Shown here piece after piece: positions 26,606 to 64,000 of a stretch of 64,000 nucleotides of DNA. Origin of the DNA: Cyanobacteria bacterium LVE1205-1. Its GTDB lineage: Bacteria; Cyanobacteriota; Cyanobacteriia; CAIUCS01. Where the stretch lies: the NCBI GenBank assembly GCA_041879355.1, contig CP089922.1, positions 462,172 through 526,171 on the forward strand, given 5' to 3'. Every line of letters starts with the position of its first letter. The first letter of the stretch is position 1. The position numbers and the translations under genes were made by a program. The notes under the pieces were generated by a model that saw only the letters and a program-made list of their open reading frames with translations, was not told the origin of the DNA and did no database searches.

Positions 26606-28220
26606 GTGATTACAGTGACATTCAATCTTAGAACCATAGCAACGATAAAGCGGTTATTGGGTGAACATCCCTTTGCCTGGGCATGGGTGGGATTAATTAT
26701 CCTTTCCATCATCGGTTGTCAATCTGGTGTTACCACCAATCCTCGTTTTTCCCCAAGTTCAGGACAAATTATTCTTGGAACGACAGCTCGAATTCGTACC
26801 CTTGATCCCGCTGATGCCTATGAAATTTTTTCTGGCACGGTTTTATATAATCTGGGCGATCGCCTCTACATAGCCGACCCTGAAACCGGAAACCTAGTTC
26901 CCCAACTAGCAATGACCATGCCTGTCATTAGTAATGACGGACTCACCTATACTATTCCTTTACGTCAAGGAGTTGTATTTCACAATGGCAGCCCCTTTGA
27001 TGCCAACGCCATGGTCTTTTCCCTGCAACGGTTTATCTCCAATGAAGGTAGTCCCTCTTTTTTGCTGGGCGATGTGGTGAAGTCTATTGTTGCCACGGGT
27101 GACTATGAGTTAACCATTACCTTAAAACAACCCTTTGCAGCTTTTCCATCCCTATTGACCGTACCCGGGATGTGTGCCGTTGCCCCCAATGTATATAAAA
27201 TTGGGGCTGGACAATTTAACCCAGATAGTTTTGTGGGCACTGGTCCCTATCAATTAGTTCAATCCAGTCCCGACTCCCTCAAAATGGAGCGCTTTGAGCA
27301 ATATTGGGGGGAGCGAGCCGCCAATCCTGGTGTTAGTATTCAGTTTTTTACCAGTGGTGCCAATTTGTTCAATGGGTTTCGCTCCGGTTCCGTTGATGTG
27401 GCGTATCAAACCCTGGATGTGGATCAGATTCTTGCATTGCAGCGGGATGGTCAATCCCGGGGTTGGCAAATGATAGAAGGACCTGGTAATGGGATTCATT
27501 ATTTGAGTCTCAACTTACAACAACCACCCCTTGATAACCCCCTGGTTCGCAAAGCAATTGCAGCACTGATTGATCGACCGCTGTTACAAGACCGGGTCTT
27601 TCGTGGTCAGGTGGAGCCCCTGTATAGCCTCATCCCTTCCACCGTCACTGGGAGTAGACCCGTCTTTCAATCTCCCTATGGAGATGGTAATGCCCAAAAA
27701 GCGAAAGCTTGGTTACTTGAAGCAGGATATTCTTCTGCCAACCCGCTTCGGGTTGAGTTATGGTATCGTTCTAATTTGACAAATAATGTTATTGCTGCCC
27801 AAACCCTACAGGCTTCTATCCATCAAAAACTTGGAGATTTGATTACTTTGGAACTACAAGGTGTAGAGTCGGCAACTGCCTATCAGAATCTGGATAAGGG
27901 AGTATATCCAGATGATCATGCTAGATTGGAGTCCTGATTTTTTGGATGCTGATAACTACCTGCAACCATTTTTGGATTGCAGCCAAGGTAAGGCACCCAA
28001 CCAATGCGAATCGGGGGCAAGTAAATTACAGGGTTCATTTTATTTTAGCGATCGCGCCAATCAATTAATCAGTCAATCGCGCCAAACCAATAATGAGAGT
28101 ATGCGGCTAACCCTACTCAACCAACTACAAACCCTGGTGGCAGAGGACATTCCCTTCATTCCCCTTTGGCAAAATAAGGAATTTTTATTTATCCAGGATA
28201 GGATTGAGGGGGCAAGTTAG
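26606..28220 (+). CDS. ABC transporter substrate-binding lipoprotein, family 5 (peptide/nickel type); frameshift at T6 run near 27935
   Basis: Signal peptide with lipobox IIGC; C-terminal 102-aa ORF continues in another frame. Confidence 0.7.
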
Positions 28221-51786: not shown

Positions 51787-52250
51787 ATAGATCTAGAGGT
51801 AAAACCGCTTTGATTGTAGCTTGAGTGCAAACGCCTTAACTCCCTCGTCCCGGGAGTGGGGAAGGAAGAACCCAGGTTCTGTCCAAGACGACATTGGACT
51901 AGGTAGGACACTCCTTCCCTCCATAGGGATGGATTTTCACGTCCAAACGCTTCCGCATAGCGTTGATATTCAACTAGTACCGCTTGCCAATACTTAGCGA
52001 CCCTATTGGATAATCATGTCCCCATGACCAAAATAAAAATCGCTTTCTTTGTTCCAGCTTGGGGTGCCAACGTCCAATTACTGGTGGTTTAATCAACCCA
52101 TCCCACCAATATGTTTTCTTCGCCCATGCTTGTAATTCTAGTAACACCATCATAACCCCATAGTTTAGTGTAGGATTATCTTGATTGAGGGGGAGAACTG
52201 CCTTTTAATGCCCCAGTCCTATAAAATATGAGTAGAAAACCATTTTTGAA

Positions 52251-53609
52251 ATGAGTACTATTCCCTGGGAACTTACATTTAGTCAAATTCAGAAAATGTT
52301 ACTGGCGGAGGTAGAGAATCGAATTCCTAGTCAGGAACCGGAACACTTTACATTGGAATTGACAGCTGAAAATAGTCAATTTATACGCTTCAATCATGGA
52401 CGAGTCCGGCAGAGTGGTTCGGTTGTCAATGCTGAACTTACCTTGACCGTGGTGGATGATCATCGAACAGTTTATGGGAGTTTTCCTTTTACTGGCGACT
52501 TGGAAAGGGATGGGGATTTGATGATGGCAGTTCTCAAGGATTTACGGCAGGATTTACCCCAATTACCCGTAGACCCTCATTTGGTCATACCTGAAGGAAC
52601 TGAGATAAGTCGATCAATCTTTACGGGACACCTACTATCCCCTGACGATATTTTGAATGGGATTTTACCCATCGTTGAAACTACAGACCTAGTTGGTTTA
52701 TATGCCGGGGGTTCATTAATTCGTGCTTATACAGATTCTGCTGGAAAGTTCCATTGGTTTTCCACGGAATCTTTTACCTTTGATTATTCCTTATTTGCCG
52801 TTACAGGACAGGCGGTCAAAGGGACGTTTGCTGGTAGTCACTGGATCCAATCTGATTATGAATCTCATTTGATGGCTGCCAGGCAACAACTTCAACAGAT
52901 TAACCAACCCCCAATGAGGATTCCTAAGGGTCAGCACCGCACCTACTTTGCTCCGGCAGCGGTGGCAGAAATATTAGGATTATTTTCATGGGGAGGAGTT
53001 AGTCACGCTTCAATTCAACAGGGTGGTAGTGCTTTAGCCTCTCTTTATCGTGGAGAATCCCACTGGTCTGAACAATTTAACCTAAAGGAAAATTTTACTC
53101 CAGGGTTAGTCCCTAGGTTTAATGAATTGGGTGAAACAGCGCCAATGGAGCTAACATTGATCTCTGCCGGACGGATGGTTAATAGTTTAATTTGCTCTCG
53201 TTCTGCCAGAGAGTATGGGGTAGAATCCAATGGTGCTGCATTGGGGGAGTATCTACGTTCTCCTGAAGTCGGGACTGGGAAGATGGCTGCCACTGATATT
53301 CTTAAAACTTTAGGAACAGGGTTATATGTGTCCAACCTTCATTACCTTAATTGGAGCGATCGCCCAACAGCCCGGTTTACAGGCATGACACGTTATGCCT
53401 GTTTTTGGGTGGAAGGAGGCGAAATTGTGGCACCAATCCATAATCTACGATTTGATGAAAGTCTTTATCGTTGCTTTAGTCCAGAACAACTCATTAGTGT
53501 GACTGAGTTTCAAGAGTTTATCCCTGAAGTGAGTACCTATGGTCATCGACAATTAGGGGGAGTTTGGGTGCCTGGAATGGTAATTGATAACTTTACATAT
53601 ACTTTATAA
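52251..53609 (+). CDS. TldD/PmbA-family metalloprotease
   Basis: 452 aa; C-terminal GTGLYVSNLHYLNW...RFTGMTRYACFWVEGGEI characteristic of TldD/PmbA. Confidence 0.75.
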   Translation: MSTIPWELTFSQIQKMLLAEVENRIPSQEPEHFTLELTAENSQFIRFNHGRVRQSGSVVNAELTLTVVDDHRTVYGSFPFTGDLERDGDLMMAVLKDLRQDLPQLPVDPHLVIPEGTEISRSIFTGHLLSPDDILNGILPIVETTDLVGLYAGGSLIRAYTDSAGKFHWFSTESFTFDYSLFAVTGQAVKGTFAGSHWIQSDYESHLMAARQQLQQINQPPMRIPKGQHRTYFAPAAVAEILGLFSWGGVSHASIQQGGSALASLYRGESHWSEQFNLKENFTPGLVPRFNELGETAPMELTLISAGRMVNSLICSRSAREYGVESNGAALGEYLRSPEVGTGKMAATDILKTLGTGLYVSNLHYLNWSDRPTARFTGMTRYACFWVEGGEIVAPIHNLRFDESLYRCFSPEQLISVTEFQEFIPEVSTYGHRQLGGVWVPGMVIDNFTYTL

Positions 53610-53737
53610 ATTTTGGTGATGGCAATGAGAGACTACATTCGCTTAGGTGATTAATGATTTTTACCATGGACGGATTTTCTTTTGTGAAACGTGTCTACTG
53701 TTGATTTCAGTCCTTGATCCCAAGGGATTAGGGAATG

Positions 53738-53768
53738 AGGGTGAGGGCTGCAAAATTGGGATGCACCC
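53738..53768. repeat. Dispersed short repeat family A, 3' arm copy
   Basis: GGGTGAGGGCTGCAAAATTGGGATGCACCC, one mismatch to 2799..2828. Confidence 0.7.
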
Positions 53769-53838
53769 ATTTTAACCCTCTTCATGTCCAATTTGATTGC
53801 AATAATAATTCCTAGGAACCATTTACTTCCAATCAACC

Positions 53839-55008
53839 ATGCCATTGAAACCGTCCCAATTGTTATCGTGTTTACAGGACAAACAGGCTGAATTTCGTCA
53901 TTTTGACCATAGAGCGTTAGCGTTACTCCACCAATATCGCAGTGCTCTCGCAGAAGCCGCCAACCACCCCTTTTTAGAATTACCTACTCAGTTTTCATCC
54001 TATGATGGGGGTAATTTAGAGGCTTTTCCACTGGAACCCAATCATTTATTCCCTCATTGGGTTATTCCCTGTCAACTAACTTGGGGAAATCGGGAGCAAA
54101 GTTTACAATGGGTCCGGGGACTTTTAACGGGAATTAAAACATTTGCGGTGGATGGCTCCCAAATTTCACCAGGTAAGGACCTATCAATTCCAGTTGCCTT
54201 AGTTCAGGTAGGTTGGTTTGAAAATCTGCATCTGCCATCAGGGGGTTATACTAAGGACATTCAGTTGGATGTATTGACACCAAGTGACCTGAAAGTATCC
54301 CATGATCAACTGGTGGAGGGGGTCGTAAGTGCCCATCGGTTCCAGTTAGAAACTCAGCGGTTGGTGGATTATATGAATGAACATCACAATGACCCCAATT
54401 GTTTGGTGTTCTTTGATGGTTCTTTGGTGCCCTCCTTTGCTGAAAAATGGGACGTTGAACTCAGCGATCGCTATGTTTCTTCCCTAAAAAAACTCATTGC
54501 CACCAGTGAACGTACCCAAGTACCATTGGTCGCCTACGTGGATACCTCCCATGCCCGCGACTTGACAGTCATGTTAGAACAAGTCATGAATTTACCAGAA
54601 GCACCATTAATTCAAGATGCCCAGTTATTGGATCCACTGATGAAGTGGGGCGATCGCACCCTTTTATTCCAATGTCGGCGGTCAGGGATTCTCAGCCATT
54701 TCCATGAACAACAGGGTGACATCACCTTCACCTACTTAAAAAGCACCCGTGAGGGTTATCCCGCCCGTTTAGAATTTCCCCGTTGGATAATTGAATCCGG
54801 GCGATTAAATCAAGTGATGGATTGGATTCGGGGTGAATTGATCATCGGGAATGGCTATCCTTATGTGATTGAAACAGCGGATCAAGCTGCCGTTCTTAAA
54901 GCAGAGGATCGGCAAACCTTTTATCGAATCCTTCAGGATTGGGCAGAGGAACAAGAATTAAAATTGCGGTTTTCCCGTAAGATGGTTAGTAAGACGAGGC
55001 GGAGGTGA
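53839..55008 (+). CDS. NurA-domain 5'-3' nuclease-like protein (no HerA partner adjacent)
   Basis: NurA-like motifs FAVDGSQ, LVFFDGSL, GNGYPYVIETADQAA. Confidence 0.6.
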   Translation: MPLKPSQLLSCLQDKQAEFRHFDHRALALLHQYRSALAEAANHPFLELPTQFSSYDGGNLEAFPLEPNHLFPHWVIPCQLTWGNREQSLQWVRGLLTGIKTFAVDGSQISPGKDLSIPVALVQVGWFENLHLPSGGYTKDIQLDVLTPSDLKVSHDQLVEGVVSAHRFQLETQRLVDYMNEHHNDPNCLVFFDGSLVPSFAEKWDVELSDRYVSSLKKLIATSERTQVPLVAYVDTSHARDLTVMLEQVMNLPEAPLIQDAQLLDPLMKWGDRTLLFQCRRSGILSHFHEQQGDITFTYLKSTREGYPARLEFPRWIIESGRLNQVMDWIRGELIIGNGYPYVIETADQAAVLKAEDRQTFYRILQDWAEEQELKLRFSRKMVSKTRRR

Positions 55009-55095
55009 CAGTTCCAATAGACAGTAATCCCTTAATTTCGTTTTTGATCCATAGTTTTTATAAAAAGCCCCACGTTCTTAAATTCCTAAACCCCA

Positions 55096-55518
55096 ATGGA
55101 CATTGCCACCCCAGATGATTTATTTACCGTAGCGATCGAACGCTATAAGGCAGGAGAACCAATTGCAGAATTAATTCCGTTATTTAAGGAGATTTGTCAA
55201 CGTTTTCCTAAAACCAGTGCCCCCTGGACCTGTTTAGCCTGGCTTTATTTACTCAGTGATCAGGGTAACTTAGCATTAGAATCAGCCAAAAAGGCCTTAA
55301 AATTTAATGCCCAAGACCCCCAAGCCAGGGTGAACTTAGCATTAGCTTTATTAGAAACTCAACAAAAAGGAGTTCGGAGTCATGTAGAAATATTGCAACA
55401 TTTGATCGCCACATCCTCTGAAGTCCGGGACGAAATTGAGACCAGTATTGATGATGGGCTGACCCGTAAGCCGGAGTGGAAAGCATTGTTAAAAATGAAA
55501 CAATGGCTGTTCAGTTAA
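55096..55518 (+). CDS. Small TPR-like helical protein
   Basis: 140 aa, helical repeats with TPR-like W/LG/Y/A/P spacing. Confidence 0.5.
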   Translation: MDIATPDDLFTVAIERYKAGEPIAELIPLFKEICQRFPKTSAPWTCLAWLYLLSDQGNLALESAKKALKFNAQDPQARVNLALALLETQQKGVRSHVEILQHLIATSSEVRDEIETSIDDGLTRKPEWKALLKMKQWLFS

Positions 55519-55542
55519 AGAGTCGATTGCTGTAAAATTCCC

Positions 55543-56499
55543 ATGCCAAATCCTCCTAACTTACCCCCGTCTGAAGTGACCCCTGAAGACGTTTTCCTGA
55601 ACCGTCGAAAATTCATGAAGACAGCCATATGGGTCGGTTCTACCATTACCACAAGTAGTGTTTATCAAACCCTCAAGCCTGCCCCTAAAGTGGAAAATAC
55701 AGGGAAAGACATTGTGGTTTCCGCTTCACCATCCAAATCTGCCTCCACTGACGAGTTAAGTCGTTTTCAAGACATTGCTGGCTATAACAATTTTTACGAA
55801 TTTTCAACTCAAAAATCTGCAGTTGCTGCCCGCGCCCAATCCTTCGTTACGAAGCCATGGACAGTACAAGTAGGGGGGTTGGTACAAAACCCCATTGCCC
55901 TGAGTTTGGATGATATTATGGGGATGGAGGCAATAGAGCGCATCTATCGATTCCGGTGTGTGGAGGGCTGGTCCATGGTCATTCCCTGGGTTGGTTTTCC
56001 CTTATCCAAATTACTGGAACAGGTAAAACCGAAGGATGGAGCCACCCATGTTGCTTTTGAAAGTTTTTTCGATCGCCAGCAAATGCCCTATGCTCTCTTT
56101 TCTGGTATTCCCTTCCCTTATCTGGAAGGGTTACGACTAGATGAGGCAATGCACCCCCTCACCTTATTAGCTACGGGTCTCTATGGGAAAACTTTGCCAA
56201 ACCAAAATGGTGCCCCGGTGCGGTTGGTTGTTCCTTGGAAGTATGGATTTAAGAGTATTAAGTCTATCGTAAAGATTACCGTCACCGACCATGAACCAGT
56301 AACCACTTGGAATCGGGCAAATCCTAGGGAATATGGGTTTTATTCTAACGTTAACCCCACCGTAGACCATCCCCGTTGGTCCCAAGCCCAGGAACGTCGG
56401 ATTGGTGAAACTAGGCTTCGTCCCACCTTGATGTTTAACGGTTATGGTGAAGAAGTTGCCCATCTTTATGATGGTATGGATCTTCGTCGTTATTTTTGA
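55543..56499 (+). CDS. msrP: Protein-methionine-sulfoxide reductase catalytic subunit MsrP (YedY-type molybdoenzyme)
   Basis: Tat-like N-terminus ([12 protein letters not shown]), sulfite-oxidase-family core with RFRCVEGWS. Confidence 0.85.
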
Positions 56500-56502
56500 C
56501 CT

Positions 56503-57089
56503 ATGAATTCTTTAAGAGCTGATAGTCAATTTCATCGTCATTTAATTCTGGTCAATGGATTAATCCCAATCCTTTGGATTGGGATGGATGGATGGCAGGG
56601 GCAGTTGGGGGCAAATCCGGTGGAGTTTGTCACCCGAGCTACTGGTATATTATCCTTACTTTTTTATTACTTACTCTGGCGGTAACCCCACTCCGACATT
56701 TATTCCACTGGATTTGGCTAATTAAACAACGTCGATTGCTGGGGCTCTTTTCTTTCTTTTATGCCATCCTTCATTTGTTAGCCTATGTGGGGGGCGATCG
56801 CGGCTGGCAACTACTCTCCATTCCCGCTGACATCATCCGTCGCCCATTTATTACTGTTGGGATGATCAGTTTGTTATTAATGGTGCCTTTGGCAATCACC
56901 TCTACCCATGCCATGATTAAGCGATTGGGGGTAAAACAATGGAAAATACTTCATCGTCTGGTTTATATTATTGCCATTGGCGGGGTTATCCACTATGCCT
57001 TAATTGTAAAGTCAGATTTTACCTATCCCTTTTTATTTGCCATTGTTCTCACTTTTTTCCTTGGTTATCGCCTTCGGTTAACTTCCTAA
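56503..57089 (+). CDS. msrQ: Methionine-sulfoxide reductase heme-binding subunit MsrQ (YedZ); frameshift at T-run near 56665
   Basis: Two ORFs (56503..56685, 56574..57089) in different frames; conserved His in transmembrane helices (HLLAY, HYAL); 3 bp after msrP. Confidence 0.8.
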
Positions 57090-57192
57090 AAGTACTTTGG
57101 GGATTCGTCATCTAATCCGTGACAGGTTGGTGTCTACCACCCGATGGTGGAGTTTCATGAATACTCCCCAGGGTCATCTTCTCCCTGTATCT

Positions 57193-58131
57193 TCAAAAGG
57201 GGGGGTCTTCATCAGGCAACAGAAACTCACAAATTGCCTGACTAATTAATTCTGGTTGATCACCAATGGCATCATGACCACAATTGGGAAGAAGGTTTAA
57301 ACGGGAATTAGGGAGACGGCGTTGTAATTCGTAGCCATCTTCAACGGGAAACCACCGGTCCTGGTCACCCCATAGAATCAGAACGGGGCAGGTAATTTCA
57401 GGTAACCGTAACTGTATATCAGTGATGAGATTTGGTAAACCCTGGACTAATTGATCCAGTTCACGGGCTGCCAACTGTAAATCTTCAACCAATTTCGTGA
57501 AAGTACCTGGAATGTAAATTTGGGGATAGGTGATCCCATAGACCTCTGAAGCAGTAATTTGGGATGGATCAAATACAACTTGGGCACGGGCTTTTTCAAC
57601 GATGAACAAAATTGGTTGGGCTAAACGTTTAGCCCAGCCCCATTGATCAACCCACCGTACTACTTGGATGGGAAGATGAGCCATGAGTTGCATTCCCAAG
57701 CTAGGTAATCGACGGGGAAAGATGGGAGCATTAATAATAATTAGTTTGCGAACTAAATGGGGATGGGTTTGAACGGCTGCTAAGGTCGTCAACGCTCCCA
57801 AGGATTCGGCGGCAATAAAAGCGGGTTCATGGCATAGCCCTTGAATAATGCGTATTAATTCAATTACCTGATGACCGGGTAATTCTGGCAGTAAGGGCTT
57901 GTCCGAATATCCGCACCCTTTAGCATCCACACAAATCACTCGAAAATGGTTCGCCAAGTGGTGGATAGTGTGCCGCCAACTATAGCTCCAACTGGCAATT
58001 CCATGGATGAGGAATAATGGAGGTCCCTCTCCTTTTTCGCCATAGGCAATATGAATACCTTCACCAGTTGCATCTTCAATGGATAATAATTGCCGTCCCT
58101 GGGGAAATGTAGACTGCCACCATTCTTCCAT
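57193..58131 (-). CDS. Alpha/beta hydrolase
   Basis: HGIASWSYSW, nucleophile elbow AESLGAL, C-terminal GHDAIGDQPE. Confidence 0.75.
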   Translation of the reverse strand: MEEWWQSTFPQGRQLLSIEDATGEGIHIAYGEKGEGPPLFLIHGIASWSYSWRHTIHHLANHFRVICVDAKGCGYSDKPLLPELPGHQVIELIRIIQGLCHEPAFIAAESLGALTTLAAVQTHPHLVRKLIIINAPIFPRRLPSLGMQLMAHLPIQVVRWVDQWGWAKRLAQPILFIVEKARAQVVFDPSQITASEVYGITYPQIYIPGTFTKLVEDLQLAARELDQLVQGLPNLITDIQLRLPEITCPVLILWGDQDRWFPVEDGYELQRRLPNSRLNLLPNCGHDAIGDQPELISQAICEFLLPDEDPPF

Positions 58132-58143
58132 TGTGGGTTCCTC

Positions 58144-58518
58144 TTAACGGGTAATTTCTACAACAATATTGCCACTAAAATTAGGGATCGGTGGTGATAC
58201 CTTGGTTAGACATACTTTTACCTGCTGAACCAACGGGAATTGTAATAGGTTGGATGCAATGACAGATGCTAATTTCTCTACCAAAGCATATTTAGACTGG
58301 TGAACTAAATCAGTCACTTGGGCAATGACAGTACGGTAGTCTAGGGTGTCAGTCAAGTTGTCAGTATTGCCAGCGATGTGGAGGTCTAACCCCAAGGACA
58401 AATTGATTTCAAACCATTGCCCTAAAGTTTGTTCTTCGGGCAATGCACCCGTGTACCCATAACAACGAATGGCATTGATATGAATCCAATCCATAGATAT
58501 ATCAACAAATGTATCCAC
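58144..58518 (-). CDS. folB: Dihydroneopterin aldolase FolB
   Basis: 124 aa; YGYTGALPEE...NLTDTLDYRTV pattern. Confidence 0.8.
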   Translation of the reverse strand: MDTFVDISMDWIHINAIRCYGYTGALPEEQTLGQWFEINLSLGLDLHIAGNTDNLTDTLDYRTVIAQVTDLVHQSKYALVEKLASVIASNLLQFPLVQQVKVCLTKVSPPIPNFSGNIVVEITR

Positions 58519-59066
58519 TAAATCCGGTTTTCTAGATATTGACCAATCATCAATTGCTCCTGTGCCCGTGAAATAATTGTTTGACGAACACGATAGTGGG
58601 AACCAACTAGTTTTAATTCCTCCTCAAATACATTTCCATCATACTCGGTATGAAGGGTCATGGTGTGGTTATCCCCCATGGTGTAGCGGGCAATAATCGG
58701 GCTTGAGGTATTAAACCCACGATCTCGATATAGGGATGAGCCGAGGACACCAAATACAGTTGATCCATTTACCTGACGGGGACTAGGACCTACATAATCA
58801 CTTTCCCATGTCGTCAGGGCTCCAAATTTTAATAGTGTTTCATCCCCAAGCCCATGGACTTGGGCTAAATGGATTAATCGTTCATCACCAAAGGGCAGAA
58901 ATTCAACCGTAATGGAGCTGACCACTTCTTGTACTGTATCGTTTTTTAAGGTATAGTAACGCCGTTGCGATCGCCAGTTACCATGGGATTGACGAAAAAA
59001 TTCTTCTGCTCGTGTTTCCGATTGGGAATGGTCTGATAGTCGGACAGCTGGGGATAAGATGGTCAT
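58518..59066 (-). CDS. Phycobiliprotein lyase, CpcS/CpeS family
   Basis: EFFRQSHGNWRSQRRYYTL N-terminal signature, NGSTVFGVLG...LYRDRGF, TLHTEYDGNVFEEEL. Confidence 0.65.
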   Translation of the reverse strand: MTILSPAVRLSDHSQSETRAEEFFRQSHGNWRSQRRYYTLKNDTVQEVVSSITVEFLPFGDERLIHLAQVHGLGDETLLKFGALTTWESDYVGPSPRQVNGSTVFGVLGSSLYRDRGFNTSSPIIARYTMGDNHTMTLHTEYDGNVFEEELKLVGSHYRVRQTIISRAQEQLMIGQYLENRI

Positions 59067-59406
59067 AGATGTGCAAATTTAGACTGGTTATGGGAAGTAC
59101 ATTGAAAACAGTATTACAAAAAGCAAGTAACTCTCTTGGGATGGGTTGAGGATTTTGATGTCCAACTCTTGCCACAAAATATAAGCCAAGACTTGGACAT
59201 CTCCAATTCCATTGATACCGACATGGGGCAACCCTCAATGCCCCAGCCTGTAAACGAGATTACAAGGGAAAATTAAATGATTCTATATAAAATGTAACAA
59301 ATCTTAAAAATTTTTGCATTGATTTCCCTTTCAGGGGAAGGATATTTTGGTTGTCGGGAGAATGGGTCTAAAACTCCGTTCTTTTAGTATAGTACTCCCC
59401 ATATTC

Positions 59407-60606
59407 TGGACAGGTTAATAAGATAGTCTCGCTGCCAATAGACTATGAAACTATACGGAGGAGATTGCAAGCCATGCAGCGAAAACGACATACCCCAGAG
59501 TTTAAGACGAAAGTGGTCGGGGAATAAAACGATCAACGAAATCGCCAGTGAAATGGGGATTCACGCAACCCAGATTACTCAATGGAAAAAACAGGCTCAG
59601 GAAGGACTCAAGGAGGTCTTTGCGGATCGTCGAGGGAAGAGCCAGAGCCAGGAACCCTTAATTGAGCAGCTTTACCAGAACATTGCTCGGCTCCAAGTGG
59701 AACTGGAGTGGTTGCAAAAAATCTGGTCTTACCTCTTGAATCAAAGCGGCAACTCATTGAACCCGTAAACCGAGAGATCAGCATTGTGCGTCAGTGCGAA
59801 TTGCTGGAACTCAATCGAAGTAGCGACTACTACGAAGCAGCCAGGGAAAGCTCACATAAGGAGTACCTGATGGGAAAGTTCGATGAGCAGTATACCCAAA
59901 CTCCGTTCTACGGGGTATTGGGAATGACGGAAGTCCTGCGAGCCCAAGGAGAAGAGGTCAATCCTAAACAAGTCCGTCGTCTACTCAGGGTAATGGGTTT
60001 AGAAGCTATCTATCCCAAACCCAAAATCTCATCGTCAGGTAAGAATAGTCGTCGCTATCCCTATCTGCTCAGGGGAAAAGCCATTGAGCGTCCCAACCAC
60101 GTTTGGAGTACTGACATCACATACATTCGACTGGACAAGGGATTTATTTACCTTGTAGCGGTGATTGACTGGTACAGCCAGTATGTCCTCTCATGGGAAG
60201 TCTCCAATACCCTGGATGTCCACTTTTGTCTGGATGTTCTGGAAAGTACTCTCTCTCAAGGGATGCCAGAGATTTTCAATACCGACCAGGGCAGCCAATT
60301 TACCAGTCTTGCTTTTACTGACCGTCTACTCAAAGGAGGGATAACAATCAGTTAGGATGGGCGTGGTCGAGCCCTAGACAACATTTTTGTGGAACGGATT
60401 TGGCACTCATTGAAATACGAGGAGGTGTACCTAAAGTCCTACAGGTCTGTGTCAGAGGCAATTCAAGGGATTGGGGACTATTTCAGATTTTATAACCACG
60501 ATCGTTTACATCAGTGGTTGGATTATCAGACACCAGCTATGGTTCACAGAAAAGGCAATGCCTGCTTGTAATGAATTCGCATTGAGTCTTTCTGTCTTAT
60601 GTCCAG
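59407..60606 (+). mobile_element. IS3-family insertion sequence, about 1.2 kb, with imperfect terminal inverted repeats
   Basis: Left end TGGACAGGTTAATAAGATAGTCTC, right end (reverse complement) TGGACATAAGACAGAAAGACTC; internal orfA/orfB transposase. Confidence 0.75.
59473..60571 (+). CDS. IS3-family transposase OrfA-OrfB (HTH + DDE integrase core); disrupted by an extra frameshift in orfA and an in-frame stop near 60355
   Basis: OrfA MQRKRHTPEFKTKVV... then NKTINEIASEMGIH; OrfB VWSTDITYI, NTDQGSQFTS, ALDNIFVERIWHSLKYEEVY; A-rich frameshift window GCAAAAAAT. Confidence 0.8.
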
Positions 60607-60701
60607 CATTAACCAACAAATGCCTTACAAGGAGGTGATGTAATTAATGTAACACCAACAACAAATGCACTGCTAAGTGAAATTACTTCTTAAATTAGCA
60701 T

Positions 60702-61436
60702 TGCATAATAAAGTATGAGTTCAAGGAAGAGAGATGAAATGTCCACAGTGTGGATCAGAACACATACGCAAAAATGGTATTCAGAAAGGAAAACAAAATC
60801 CCATTTGCGCTGAATGTGGACGACAGTTTATAAATCCCAGTGAACAAACCAAAGCATTCCCAGAAACTACCAAACAAACTTGCCTGAAGATGTATCTCAA
60901 TGGCATGGGATTCAGGGCTATAGAAAGAGTGATGGGAGTACATCACAGTCATTGATTGGGTTCAACAAAAAGGTAAGAAGTTACCTGATGCAATTGCTCC
61001 AGAGAATATCCCCGATGTGGGCGAATGGGATGAACTGGAAACATTTGTCGGGTCAAAAAAACAAGATTTGGGTGTGGACAGCAGTAGACCATTTCCGTAA
61101 GGGCATCCTAGCTTGGACTTTAGGTGATCATAGTGCTGAGACTTTTGAGCCATTATGGACAATAGTAGTGGCATGGCAATGCTATTTCTATGTCACTGAT
61201 GGATGGACTGTATATCCAAGTTTTATCCCTGATGGTGATCAGAGTATTAGCAAGACTTACATGACGCGAGTTGAGGGAGAAACTCGCGGTTACGTCACTA
61301 TCTGGCACGATTGCACCGTAAAACTTTCTGCTATTCCAAGTCTGTAGATATGTTGCGTTACTCTGTGCGGTTGCTGATTCATTATCTTCATGACCCTTCT
61401 GTCCTGTTCTCTTCATGATTCATACTTTATCCTGCA
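60702..61436 (+). mobile_element. IS1-family insertion sequence, about 735 bp
   Basis: Terminal inverted repeats TGCATAATAAAGTATGAG (60702..60719) and reverse complement of CATACTTTATCCTGCA (61421..61436); InsA/InsB-like ORFs inside. Confidence 0.65.
60734..61347 (+). CDS. IS1-family transposase InsA-InsB (zinc-finger InsA fused to InsB by frameshift)
   Basis: InsA CPQCGS...CAECG zinc finger and HTH; InsB KIWVWTAVD...YVTDGW...ISKTYMTRVE. Confidence 0.7.
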
Positions 61437-61495
61437 ACGCCCTTAAATTCACTCTTTTTCTGTCTTGACATTGGGGAGTACCATAGATAACTCTG

Positions 61496-61968
61496 ATGCA
61501 GCGCCAAGTCTGCTGGGCGCACTTGAAACGAGATTTTACCCGCATCGCAGAACGGAGTGGGATGTCTCAATCGATAGGAGAAGGCTTGCTGGCGGAGGAG
61601 AAAAAGCTATTTCAGCTCTGGTATCAGGTGCGAGACGGCACCTCACTCGCAGCACCTTTCGCCAGACGGTTCAACCCATCTAGGCGGAGGTCAACCGATG
61701 GTTGCAAGACACCGCCAGCTATGACATTGGGGCTCAGGAAAAGACTCCGCTGTCCAAAACCATGCGCACATGCTGACAACTTCTGGCGATTGAGTCGACC
61801 CTATGGACGTTTGTCGATATCGTCGGGATTGAACCCACCAACAATGGGGCACAGGGAGCCTTACGTCCCGCTGTGATCTGGCAACGCACCAGTTTCGGCA
61901 CTCAGTCTCAGACAGACAGCGAGTTTATCGCCCGCCTGTTGAAGGTGATCTCTTCCTTGCAGACCTAA
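61496..61968 (+). pseudogene. IS66-family-like transposase C-terminal remnant
   Basis: CWAHLKRDF motif, then in another frame IEPTNNGAQGALRPAVIWQRTSFG; no N-terminal part, frame-disrupted. Confidence 0.45.
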
Positions 61969-62195
61969 CAGCGAGATGTCTTGGACTTCTTGATCCAGTC
62001 CATTCAGTCCAGATGCTTAGGGCAGGAACACCCTGTCCTGTGACCTCAACCCTCTGCCGGGGAGAAAACCCCTTTAACAGCGTAGCCCCCTGAATCTTTA
62101 CGTCTTGCCATCGGTTATTGAGAAGTTACTAAATTAAATATACTTACTTTTTAGATGGACTAAACCCAGTACTTAATTCATCAGGGGGGATGGCA

Positions 62196-62912
62196 TTAAC
62201 CGGGGGGTATCAGGGGGGTAACAAAGTGTCCTATACAAGTGGCACCAGATGCCATCTCTAGGGCACTAGCAATAATATCTCCTTTCAATTGGGCAGTTTG
62301 TGTTAATATTAATTTCCCCTCTGCTACTACATTGGCATAAACTTTTCCATAAATAGTTATATTCACTGCTCGAATCTCTGGACCTTGGATAGTTCCGGCA
62401 GTAGCCACTTCAATATCACCTTCAGCTTCTACCGTCCCGAAAATCTTACTATCTACCCGTAAGTTACCTTTAATTTGTAATATGCCAAAATCCTCTTGGG
62501 TTTCATTAGATGGCAATCCGGGGGGTAAACGAGTACCTGAGTAAGTTGAGGGGGATGGCTGTAATTCGGGAATATTACTGGAAACAATATGTCCAACATA
62601 GGAAGCCCCAGCAGCAATATCAAGAGCATCAACAACTATATCTCCTTCCAATCGAGCAGAGCGACTTAAACTAAGTTTACCATCCGCTACTACGTTAGCA
62701 TTAACTGTTCCATTGACAGTCAGGTTTACACCTCTAACCTCATGACCTCGAATTGAACCATCGGCAGAGACTTCTACATCCCCATCAACGTCTACTGAGC
62801 CTTCAATTTTACCGTCAACTCGAAGATTACTCTTCTTGACAGTCAGTGTTCCTACAAATTCACTGCCACTACTAACATAGGTGACGGTATTAGATGCTTG
62901 GCGATTGTACAT
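62196..62912 (-). CDS. Tandem bactofilin-domain protein
   Basis: Two repeats of a bactofilin-like module (NLRVDGKIEGSVDVDGDVEVSADGSIRG... and NLRVDSKIFGTVEAEGDIEVATAGTIQG...), each ending with a GH(I/F)V segment. Confidence 0.7.
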   Translation of the reverse strand: MYNRQASNTVTYVSSGSEFVGTLTVKKSNLRVDGKIEGSVDVDGDVEVSADGSIRGHEVRGVNLTVNGTVNANVVADGKLSLSRSARLEGDIVVDALDIAAGASYVGHIVSSNIPELQPSPSTYSGTRLPPGLPSNETQEDFGILQIKGNLRVDSKIFGTVEAEGDIEVATAGTIQGPEIRAVNITIYGKVYANVVAEGKLILTQTAQLKGDIIASALEMASGATCIGHFVTPLIPPG

Positions 62913-64000
62913 TGGATTACCTAATAATGAATTTTTAGTAGAATAGAAAAATCAATTCGAGTCATTGTATAGAAATTCTGGATGTCTGATGACATTCCTA
63001 AACAGTAAAAGAAGGAATCTTTGACTCAAAGTATACGGAATCAGTGAATCCTCCTCTGCTGAAGAAATCCATAAACTTTAGGGTACTGGGAAGATTGGGT
63101 TTTATCCTTAGGAAAGAGTTTTCCCCTTTAATCCTTTTGACTTTTCCAGCACTGGCTTACATAGTTTAGGCTTACATAGTTTAGAAATAAAAGTCGATTC
63201 TTAATTTTAACTTTGAAGTTAACCCGGTGATGAACTGATTTAGGTTATACCTGTCAGCACCCCAATTATTATCCAACATCTCAAAGCCTGATTACGGGAA
63301 AAAAGAAGAACCAAGACTACCTTATTAATTAAATAAAGTTGCGTAGCGGTTTTCAATAGAGTGAGACATCAATAGCTTAATTTTACCCCCTAGACTTTTA
63401 TCTACTCAGATCCACCCTCTAGTCCCCCAAGTTGGGGGGTTGATGGGATTCACCGTGTACTTCATTCAAACGAAACCTACTATGTTCTTCTTTGACCTTT
63501 AAGGTTGCTCCAAGTACCAGTATAAATTTACGTTAGTATTATGAAAGATGTTACACCATTAACCCATGCTAAAAATACAGAGTCCTGAACCTTTTTCAAC
63601 TACGCAAAAATATATTCCCAAAAACGCTCAAAAAAAAGGTTGTGTAGGCTACATTCAACATGGGATACTTGATTCTTATGGTCGCTACCTGTTCTTGAAT
63701 CTGGAATACAAGCAATTTAATTAAAGTATACCAACAGGACATCTGGAAAAATTAAAAATAATTGAGAAATACAATGATAGAACCTACATTCCGCAGCAGC
63801 AGTGCCAAATTCAGAAGGATGGTAGGTCATTTCAGCGATCGCCCAGATTATTAAGAATTACAAAGTTATCTTGGAATAAAACTTTCAGAGCCATCCAAAT
63901 TTGAATTTGGAATTATAGCTGTAGCCATATTGGTTAGGATGTAAGCTAGAAATATAGACCCTTCCCCTTGCGTACCATGCCTAAACCCTATAGCCTTGAT

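What the first reader, a model, noticed from the sequence alone, without database searches (positions are those of the whole stretch)
62196..64000. Tandem bactofilin gene followed by a 1.1-kb AT-rich stretch with no ORF of 60 aa or more
The bactofilin module is duplicated within one polypeptide. Beyond the gene, 62913..64000 has no track ORF on either strand, is AT-rich compared with the rest of the window, and contains the tandem direct repeat GGCTTACATAGTTTAG (about 63148..63180). It could be a decayed region or hold a non-coding RNA or regulatory locus; the window ends before it can be resolved.
Basis: seen in the sequence. Interest (0 to 1): 0.4.

Follow-up and report, generated by a model that had tools for sequence, protein, structure and literature searches.

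The report
Two-domain bactofilin gene with ordinary upstream spacer
A cyanobacterial gene encodes a cytoskeletal bactofilin built from two copies of the bactofilin domain. The 1-kb AT-rich stretch beside it is ordinary non-coding upstream DNA that ends at a decayed insertion sequence, with no sign of a hidden gene or RNA.

Summary
Window 62196-62912 (-) encodes a 238-aa protein with two complete bactofilin domains. Each half passes the Pfam threshold alone, and the predicted structure matches Thermus bactofilin. A disordered, roughly 30-residue Pro/Ser-rich linker joins the two domains.

I extended the window with a 99.98 %-identical 2.48-Mb contig. The ORF-free stretch is about 1.0 kb of upstream intergenic DNA (62913-~63914). 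The last ~86 nt of the window are the left end of a frameshifted IS630 element.

The spacer shows no function beyond the 50 nt next to the start codon:
- Its GC content (35 %) is within the range of other intergenic DNA in the window.
- It has no Rfam match, no excess RNA structure and no protein-family relic.
- It diverges at a neutral-like rate (95.2 % against a sister population).
- Relatives 77 % identical in the gene share only about 50 nt upstream of the ATG.

The repeat is a 15-nt unit at 63154-63184. It has 2 copies here and 3 in some sister populations.

Extras:
- Two poly-C tracts are one base short, which cuts off the conserved C-terminal PDTPRL tail. This is probably assembly error.
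- A second, IS-truncated gene copy lies 5 kb beyond the window.

Overall the finding is ordinary and of low interest.

The parts
62196..62912 (-). CDS of the tandem (two-domain) bactofilin, 238 aa as assembled. With the two poly-C tracts at the length seen in the sister populations (C7), the ORF would run on to the stop at 62144-62146 and carry the conserved PDTPRL tail.
62586..62882 (-). N-terminal bactofilin domain (aa 11-109). It is preceded by the N-terminal tail MYNRQASN, which resembles the BacA membrane-targeting peptide MFSKQAKS.
   Evidence: Pfam 72.5 bits. Aligns to TtBac 9-114. pLDDT about 90, beta-helix. Membrane-targeting peptide from PMC12448750.
62487..62585 (-). Pro/Ser-rich inter-domain linker (about aa 110-142), predicted disordered. 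It varies in length between relatives (PPG / PPPG / PPPAG).
   Evidence: pLDDT below 50 for residues 112-141; alignment
62226..62486 (-). C-terminal bactofilin domain (aa 143-229). Cys226 sits where TtBac has the polymerisation-interface residue Phe105.
   Evidence: Pfam 64.9 bits; alignment to 6ria
62213..62218 (-). Poly-C tract (C6 on the coding strand) that is C7 in all five sister assemblies aligned. The missing base shifts the frame and ends the protein at ...TPLIPPG* instead of ...TPPDTPRLMPSPPDELSTGFSPSKK*. A second tract at 62184-62189 shows the same C6/C7 difference.
   Evidence: homopolymer indels in guaA of the same assembly
62913..62946 (-). The most tightly conserved core of the roughly 50-nt conserved upstream segment; it is shared with relatives whose gene is 77 % identical. 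It contains an AGG Shine-Dalgarno-like triplet at 62920-62922 and a -10-like TATTCT at 62940-62945. I infer this is the proximal promoter and a short leader.
   Evidence: the promoter role is inferred, not shown
62947..63914 (.). AT-rich (35 % GC) non-coding spacer. It is specific to this lineage and diverges at a neutral-like rate.
63154..63184 (.). 15-nt tandem repeat GGCTTACATAGTTTA, 242-272 nt upstream of the ATG. It has 2 copies here and in L003/L004/L006, and 3 copies in L002/L005, so copy number varies between populations.
63915..64000 (+). Left end of a decayed IS630-family element. The terminal inverted repeat lies at about 63915-63939, and the transposase HTH ORF starts at 63968/63978. 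The element runs to about 64870 beyond the window.

Best explanation
The gene at 62196-62912 (-) encodes a bactofilin-type cytoskeletal protein in which two bactofilin beta-helix domains are joined by a flexible Pro/Ser-rich linker of about 30 residues.

By analogy with characterised bactofilins, I infer that it polymerises end to end without nucleotide into membrane-associated filaments. Each chain would contribute two beta-helical units. Only domain 1 carries the N-terminal membrane-targeting-like tail, and only domain 2 carries the family's C-terminal PDTPRL tail.

The 1.0 kb between its start codon and the IS630 end (62913-~63914) is ordinary non-coding upstream DNA. Only the proximal ~50 nt are under detectable constraint, and these hold a -10-like box, a short leader and an SD-like AGG. 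The rest is a lineage-specific, neutrally drifting AT-rich spacer in a zone full of insertion sequences. The spacer contains a small 15-nt variable-number tandem repeat produced by slippage.

The truncated C-terminus in this assembly most likely reflects homopolymer under-calling rather than biology.
For: Shown:
- Two domains: each half passes Pfam alone, and the halves are 54 % identical.
- Structure: the AF2 model has two beta-helices at pLDDT about 90 and a linker (residues 112-141) below 50. The Foldseek top hits are TtBac 6ria/6rib, with target-normalised TM 0.95 and rmsd 0.8-0.9 A.
- The same fused architecture appears in the 95 % (P0002) and 81 % (P0003, P0004, L016) relatives, so it is not an assembly artefact.
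- Tails: single-domain cyanobacterial homologues carry the N-tail and the TPRL tail on one domain. In the fusion the N-tail sits on domain 1 and the TPRL tail on domain 2.
- Extension: contig L001 is 99.98 % identical to the window and places an IS630 element (HTH_Tnp_IS630 + DDE_3, with inverted repeats) from about 63915 onward.
- Spacer: no Rfam match. Mean folding z-score is +0.23, with 1 of 66 windows below -2. There is no excess of promoter- or terminator-like sites and no Pfam match in the 10 longest stop-free pieces.
- Divergence against L003: spacer 95.2 % identity, gene 97.0 %, IS630 94.2 %. Spacer substitutions show no 3-nt periodicity (17/14/17).
- No ORF is called in the Illumina-assembled sister contigs either. 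A 72-codon open frame there is broken in the window and changes mostly non-synonymously.
- Relatives 77 % identical in the gene share only the ~50 nt before the ATG.
- The repeat has 2 or 3 copies among sister populations.
- Homopolymer errors: guaA on the same contig carries 3 frameshifts, two of them at short C and G runs. The window and L001 themselves differ by T6/T7.
Against: - Promoter position, transcription and polymerisation are all inferred; there are no transcript or protein data.
- The upstream non-coding regions are also long and AT-rich in the other lineage (816 nt in L008 and about 700 nt in L009, 35-37 % GC). This could hint at a function that depends on length or composition and that sequence comparison cannot detect.
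- With only about 5 % divergence, the sister contigs have little power to reveal constraint or covariation.
- In domain 2 the residue at the TtBac F105 / BacA F130 polymerisation-interface position is Cys, so normal end-to-end assembly of that end is not assured.
- The poly-C differences could be real.
Confidence: 0.72

Rival explanations
1. The spacer encodes a lineage-specific non-coding RNA, or a long structured 5' leader that regulates the bactofilin gene.
For: - Long ORF-free upstream regions recur in both lineages of the tandem bactofilin: 1002, 816 and about 700 nt.
- The single folding window below z = -2 (62940-63059, - strand, z = -2.1) lies just upstream of the gene.
Against: - No Rfam match even at E <= 10.
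- One of 66 windows below -2 is about what chance gives, and the mean z-score is +0.23.
- No sequence is shared with the other lineage beyond about -50.
- The divergence rate equals that of the flanking IS and other non-coding DNA.
- No terminator-like site was found.
Confidence: 0.08
2. The spacer is the eroded remnant of a former gene or mobile element, that is, a decayed region. This does not conflict with its present role as the upstream region.
For: - The neighbourhood is full of IS debris: an IS630 element at 63915 onward, an IS66-like relic at about 61460-61970 (PF03050, E = 8e-4, below the cut-off), IS1-like and IS3-like elements at 59445-61442, and an IS5-type element next to the second gene copy.
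- The spacer sequence is completely different in the sister lineage.
- The stretch is unusually long for this window.
Against: - No Pfam match at E <= 1 for the 10 longest stop-free pieces, apart from one noise hit at E = 0.13.
- No similarity to anything else in the 73 kb available, nor to plasmids or phages.
- No convincing terminal inverted repeats.
Confidence: 0.15
3. The 15-nt repeat and the poly-C tracts are genuine contingency (phase-variation) loci. They would switch the expression or the C-terminal tail of the bactofilin within populations.
For: - Repeat copy number is 2 or 3 among sister populations that are otherwise near-identical to one another (about 95 % identical to the window).
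- Both C tracts are C6 here and C7 in all five sister assemblies aligned, and the first change removes the conserved PDTPRL tail.
- Linker proline runs also vary in length.
Against: - The essential gene guaA on the same contig has frameshifts at short homopolymers.
- Two near-identical versions of this assembly differ at a T6/T7 run. Tract length here is therefore unreliable.
- A two-versus-three-copy repeat 240-270 nt upstream has no demonstrated link to a promoter.
Confidence: 0.05

Closest known systems
Canonical single-domain bactofilins (Thermus thermophilus TtBac, PDB 6RIA/6RIB; Caulobacter crescentus BacA, PDB 2N3D)
   Same: - Each half matches PF04519 end to end and superposes on TtBac (target-normalised TM 0.95, rmsd 0.8-0.9 A).
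- The N-terminal tail MYNRQASN resembles the BacA membrane-targeting peptide MFSKQAKS (PMC12448750).
- An aromatic residue (Tyr105) sits at the F105/F130 interface position in domain 1.
   Different: - There are two domains in one chain.
- Domain 2 has Cys at the interface Phe position.
- Position 2 of the N-tail is Tyr, and there is only one basic residue. PMC12448750 reports that an F2Y change lowers BacA membrane affinity.
Halofilin A (HalA) of Haloferax volcanii
   Same: It has two bactofilin-like subdomains in one polypeptide, thought to have arisen by duplication and fusion. It forms filaments in vivo (bioRxiv 10.1101/2024.01.22.576759 / PMC11459167).
   Different: - HalA's subdomains are stacked head to head and joined by an alpha-helical hairpin. 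Here the model shows a disordered Pro/Ser linker with no helix, and the relative orientation of the domains is undefined (pTM 0.51).
- HalA is archaeal and divergent. Here each half is 52-70 % identical to single-domain cyanobacterial bactofilins.
Other two-stretch PF04519 proteins in public data (e.g. P0062, P0027, P0033, P0064, P0134)
   Same: Pfam reports two Bactofilin stretches in one protein of 212-281 aa.
   Different: They are only 25-34 % identical to this protein and belong to other lineages. Only one 50 %-identity cluster (that of P0002) out of 1.84 billion representatives matches this protein over its full length.
Single-domain bactofilins of Leptolyngbya-type cyanobacteria (L014 Leptolyngbya sp. 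ULC077bin1; L015 Leptolyngbyaceae UHCC 1019; P0005-P0009)
   Same: They form the same subfamily. They are 50-70 % identical to domain 1 and share the same N-tail (…TYLGxGSE) and C-tail (…TPRL) motifs.
   Different: They have one domain of 137-151 aa.

Membership tests
Bactofilin (Pfam PF04519 / DUF583) | Sequence match to the family model above its curated threshold, tested for each half separately | tested here: met
   Whole protein 125.8 bits with 2 stretches. N half 72.5 bits, profile positions 1-97 of 98. C half 64.9 bits, profile positions 11-96 of 98. Cut-off 27.9.
Bactofilin (Pfam PF04519 / DUF583) | Right-handed three-faced beta-helix fold | tested here: met
   On a predicted model only. 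Two all-beta domains with pLDDT about 90. Foldseek hits: 6ria/6rib with target-normalised TM 0.95, and 2n3d with 0.88.
Bactofilin (Pfam PF04519 / DUF583) | Conserved Phe in the C-terminal polymerisation interface (TtBac F105, BacA F130) | tested here: inconclusive
   Domain 1 has Tyr105 at this position. Domain 2 has Cys226, which is conserved as Cys in P0001-P0004. The effect on assembly is unknown.
Bactofilin (Pfam PF04519 / DUF583) | N-terminal membrane-targeting peptide (consensus MFSKKKK) | tested here: inconclusive
   The N-terminus MYNRQASN resembles BacA MFSKQAKS but has Tyr at position 2 and one basic residue. Consensus and F2Y data are from PMC12448750.
Bactofilin (Pfam PF04519 / DUF583) | Nucleotide-independent polymerisation into filaments | not testable with these tools
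   Needs purified protein and electron microscopy, or in vivo imaging.
Halofilin A (HalA) | Two bactofilin subdomains in one chain | tested here: met
Halofilin A (HalA) | Alpha-helical hairpin connector with the subdomains stacked head to head | tested here: not met
   The model has no helix. The linker (residues 112-141) has pLDDT below 50, and pTM is 0.51. HalA is described.
Any described RNA family (Rfam 15) | Covariance-model match at or near the gathering score within 61900-64000 | tested here: not met
   The best hits were 19 and 17.7 bits against gathering scores of 60 and 36, with E = 10 and 1.3. Nothing was found in the extended locus either.
IS630 family insertion sequence (right edge of the finding) | HTH_Tnp_IS630 N-terminus plus a DDE_3 catalytic domain, flanked by terminal inverted repeats | tested here: met
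   PF01710 at 24.1 bits; PF13358 at 48.5 and 72.2 bits, spread over three frameshifted ORFs. Inverted repeats at 63915-63939 and 64846-64870 match at 21 of 25 positions. A TA target-site duplication could not be established.

The most novel reading that the evidence does not exclude
The fusion may be a functional single-chain bactofilin pair with deliberately unequal ends. Domain 1 keeps the membrane-targeting tail and an aromatic interface residue. Domain 2 carries Cys instead of the polymerisation-critical Phe, plus the PDTPRL tail. A flexible linker lets the two beta-helices engage different partners. Such a subunit could cap, branch or impose polarity on filaments that are otherwise non-polar. 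This would be a mode of bactofilin assembly not described in bacteria and different from archaeal HalA. A less likely add-on is that the poly-C tracts and the 15-nt repeat switch its tail or expression within populations.
Probability: 0.12. Interest if true: 0.5.

Novelty: new member of a known kind. Interest (0 to 1): 0.15.

Why it matters
The finding matters little. It adds a small cyanobacterial clade of covalently duplicated bactofilins to a family whose cyanobacterial members I found to be uncharacterised in the searched literature. It also offers a natural construct for asking how bactofilin end-to-end interfaces work. The AT-rich stretch, which was the open part of the finding, resolves into ordinary intergenic DNA bounded by an insertion sequence. 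A practical point is that this assembly carries homopolymer indel errors, so apparent frameshifts and split genes in the window should not be read as biology without checking the reads.

Tried and rejected
- Known RNA family: an Rfam scan at E <= 10 over 61900-64000, and at E <= 1 over the extended 12 kb, gave only noise.
- tRNA or tmRNA: none in the region.
- Structured RNA: folding z-scores in 120-nt windows on both strands showed no excess.
- Promoter and terminator consensus scan: 5 promoter-like sites against 5.5 expected, and 0 terminators.
- Hidden or relic gene: Pfam on the 10 longest stop-free pieces found nothing. The small ORFs at 63566-63724 (+) and 63596-63742 (-) are hit by a 1-nt indel in the sister contigs.
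- Repeat or mobile-element copy: self-BLAST of the region against the 73 kb available found nothing. Plasmid and phage collections gave no match.
- NtcA-type GTA-N8-TAC box: one overlaps the start codon (62907-62920). The window-wide count is 8 against 8.8 expected, and the site is not kept in L008/L009.
- Genome-collection scan with the single protein: found nothing. The repeat scan with an alignment found only two single-domain Leptolyngbya loci.
- Metagenome exact-pattern scan for the repeat junction: 0 hits.
- Metagenome protein scan: gave only one more contig of the L009 lineage. No relative at an intermediate distance is therefore available for covariation analysis.
- Literature: no paper on the source MAG. 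No paper in the searched library uses the phrases 'tandem bactofilin' or 'two bactofilin domains'. The cyanobacterial morphogenesis review I read mentions bactofilins only in its general introduction; the other cyanobacteria/bactofilin hits were not read.

Full report
**1. What is in the sequence**

The ORF at 62196-62912 on the minus strand encodes 238 aa. Pfam Bactofilin (PF04519) matches at 125.8 bits with two stretches. Scanned separately, residues 1-125 score 72.5 bits (aa 11-109, profile 1-97 of 98). Residues 126-238 score 64.9 bits (aa 143-229 of the protein), against a curated cut-off of 27.9. The halves are 54 % identical over 89 residues.

From 62913 to the window end there is no complete ORF of 60 aa or more. 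At 1088 nt this is the longest such gap in the window. Its GC content is 36 % against 44.5 % overall, but other ORF-free stretches in the window range from 33 to 45 %. The composition is therefore what intergenic DNA looks like here.

The tandem repeat is a 15-nt unit, GGCTTACATAGTTTA, with 2.1 perfect copies at 63154-63184. It has no other copy in the window.

**2. Extending the window**

The exact protein is encoded on a 2.48-Mb JGI contig (L001). That contig matches window 52197-64000 with one mismatch and one T6/T7 indel. It adds 8.9 kb beyond position 64000.

Immediately beyond, and partly inside, the window end lies an IS630-family element on the + strand:
- An HTH_Tnp_IS630 ORF starts at 63968 (TTG) / 63978 (ATG).
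- Two DDE_3 fragments follow in other frames.
- Inverted repeats lie at about 63915-63939 and 64846-64870.

The real intergenic stretch is therefore about 62913-63914, or 1.0 kb. A minus-strand ORF of 132 codons (63866-64264 in extended coordinates) runs antisense across the IS end. It has no family match, and its product differs from that of the sister contig at many residues, so I regard it as spurious.

The closest named source is the MAG 'Cyanobacteria bacterium LVE1205-1', where the paralogous copy is annotated as a polymer-forming cytoskeletal protein.

**3. Related loci**

Six short metagenome contigs (L002-L007) are about 95 % identical and collinear from 61900 to 64256, including the IS630 end. 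Gene callers placed nothing between the IS and the bactofilin gene there either.

Identity between the window and L003, by segment:

| Segment | Identity |
|---|---|
| Gene | 97.0 % |
| Spacer | 95.2 % |
| IS630 part | 94.2 % |
| Downstream non-coding DNA | 96.0 % |

Spacer substitutions show no codon periodicity (17/14/17). The 15-nt repeat has three copies in L002 and L005 and two in L003, L004, L006 and the window. It is a small variable-number repeat.

A second lineage (L008, L009-L013, L016) is 81 % identical in protein and 77 % in DNA, and has the same two-domain gene. Its upstream regions are also long (816 and about 700 nt) and AT-rich (35-37 % GC). However, they share with the window only about 50 nt before the ATG: CTATTCTAC-AAAAA…TTyATyA-TyAGGTAATCyAATG. 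That segment contains a -10-like TATTCT (62940-62945) and an AGG seven bases before the start codon. I infer, without transcript data, that the promoter and a short leader lie there.

**4. Tests of the spacer**

- Rfam gave nothing.
- Folding z-scores of 66 windows average +0.23, and only one is below -2.
- The promoter and terminator scan shows no excess.
- The ten longest stop-free translations have no Pfam match.
- Nothing similar exists elsewhere in the 73 kb at hand, or in the plasmid and phage collections.
- The small ORFs at 63566-63724 (+) and 63596-63742 (-) are hit by a 1-nt indel in the sister contigs. A 72-codon open frame in those contigs is broken in the window and changes mostly non-synonymously.

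I conclude that the stretch is ordinary, drifting intergenic DNA. A decayed-element origin cannot be excluded but has no positive evidence.

**5. The protein**

The AlphaFold2 model has two beta-helical domains (about 10-110 and 144-230, pLDDT about 90). The linker (residues 112-141) has pLDDT below 50, and pTM is 0.51, so the mutual orientation of the domains is undefined. Foldseek's best matches are Thermus bactofilin 6ria/6rib (target-normalised TM 0.95, rmsd 0.8-0.9 A) and Caulobacter BacA 2n3d.

Single-domain cyanobacterial homologues (P0005-P0009, and two Leptolyngbya genomes) carry an N-tail (…TYLGxGSE) and a C-tail (…PxTPRL). In the fusion, domain 1 keeps the N-tail and domain 2 keeps the C-tail.

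Over 102 shared columns:

| Comparison | Identity |
|---|---|
| Domain 1 vs single-domain proteins | 62-70 % |
| Domain 2 vs single-domain proteins | 52-63 % |
| Domain 1 vs domain 2 | 49-53 % |

The duplication is therefore not very recent, and it predates the split of the two tandem lineages.

The residue aligned with the polymerisation-critical Phe (TtBac F105, BacA F130; PMC12448750) is Tyr105 in domain 1 and Cys226 in domain 2. The N-terminus MYNRQASN resembles the BacA membrane-targeting peptide MFSKQAKS, with Tyr at position 2.

By homology, the most likely mechanism is nucleotide-independent end-to-end polymerisation at the membrane, with two beta-helical units per chain. This is inferred, not shown.

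**6. How unusual is the fusion?**

In a search of 1.84 billion representative proteins, 3290 match at E <= 1e-3, but only one cluster (that of P0002) matches over the full length. Unrelated proteins with two Pfam Bactofilin stretches do exist (P0027, P0033, P0062, P0064, P0134). The archaeal halofilin HalA is a described two-subdomain bactofilin, though it has an alpha-helical hairpin and head-to-head stacking, and neither is predicted here. This is therefore a new small clade of a known kind, not a new architecture.

**7. Assembly quality and the C-terminus**

On the coding strand the window has C6 at 62213-62218 and at 62184-62189, where all five sister assemblies aligned have C7. The first difference shifts the frame, so the protein ends …TPLIPPG* instead of …TPPDTPRLMPSPPDELSTGFSPSKK*.

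On the same contig the essential gene guaA is split by three frameshifts, two of them at short runs (C3 where C4 is expected, G4 where G5 is expected). The two versions of this assembly also differ at a T6/T7 run. The truncation is therefore probably a homopolymer error. A real change, or even phase variation, is not excluded.

**8. Context**

The gene sits in an IS-rich zone:
- IS3-like ORFs at 59445-60571.
- An IS1-like element at 60698-61442.
- A GC-rich IS66-like relic at about 61460-61970 (PF03050, E = 8e-4, below the cut-off).
- The IS630 element from 63915 onward.

A second copy of the gene lies at extended coordinates 67928-68631, 98 % identical to 62220-62922. Its homology stops 10 nt upstream of the ATG, against an IS1-like end, and stops inside the last codons, where an IS5-type (DDE_Tnp_1) transposase gene lies immediately beyond. 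This copy lacks both the native upstream region and the C-terminal tail.

**9. Verdict**

- The two-domain reading is right.
- The suggestion of an RNA or other special locus in the AT-rich stretch is not supported.
- Interest is low.

Noticed in passing
beyond the window: extended coordinates 67928-68631 (= L001 4292-5005): There is a second copy of the tandem bactofilin gene, 98 % identical to 62220-62922 and 237 aa long (= P0001, annotated in NCBI as a polymer-forming cytoskeletal protein). Its homology ends 10 nt upstream of the ATG at an IS1-like end. It also ends inside the last codons, with an IS5-type DDE_Tnp_1 transposase gene immediately beyond. This looks like an IS-bounded partial duplicate.
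   Followed up: partly
window 62184-62189 and 62213-62218: Two poly-C tracts on the coding strand are C6 here and C7 in all five sister assemblies aligned. The first removes the conserved C-terminal PDTPRL tail. This is likely homopolymer under-calling.
   Followed up: partly
L001 1-1574 (beyond the window, extended about 71339-72912): The essential gene guaA (GMP synthase) is split by three frameshifts, two at short C and G runs. This indicates indel errors in the assembly, so split genes elsewhere in the window, including the 'fragmented' transposases, may be artefacts.
   Followed up: partly
window 56659 and 52616: These are the only differences between the window and the JGI contig over 11.8 kb: a T6/T7 run and one A/G substitution. 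The two are near-identical assemblies of the same organism.
   Followed up: yes
window 59445-61970: A cluster of IS remnants lies just downstream of the bactofilin gene. It comprises IS3-like HTH + rve ORFs (59445-60571), an IS1-like element (60698-61442) with further copies and fragments at extended 68632-68734, 69027-69189 and 69191-69927, and a 55 % GC IS66-like relic (about 61460-61970).
   Followed up: partly
window 63866-64000 (-), continuing to 64264 beyond the window: A 132-codon ORF runs antisense across the IS630 left end and was called as a gene in the JGI record. It has no family match, and its product differs from that of the sister contig at many residues. It is probably spurious.
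   Followed up: partly
window 62907-62920: A GTA-N8-TAC palindrome (NtcA-box-like) overlaps the bactofilin start codon. The window-wide count of this pattern is at chance level (8 against 8.8 expected), and the site is not conserved in L008/L009.
   Followed up: yes
window 63835-63851: A HIP1-type GCGATCGC octamer lies within a 17-nt exact match to 26847-26863 on the opposite strand. From my own knowledge, this octamer is a cyanobacterial hallmark rather than a feature of this locus.
   Followed up: no
L016 160-555: In the other tandem-bactofilin lineage the far-upstream region contains three direct repeats with a 168-nt period. They read through as a repetitive 131-aa ORF and are unrelated to the window's spacer.
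   Followed up: no
window 63420-63437: A short GC-rich hairpin (CCCCCA-AGT-TGGGGG) sits in the middle of the AT-rich spacer with no adjacent T-run. The sister contigs have one extra A next to the C run.
   Followed up: no
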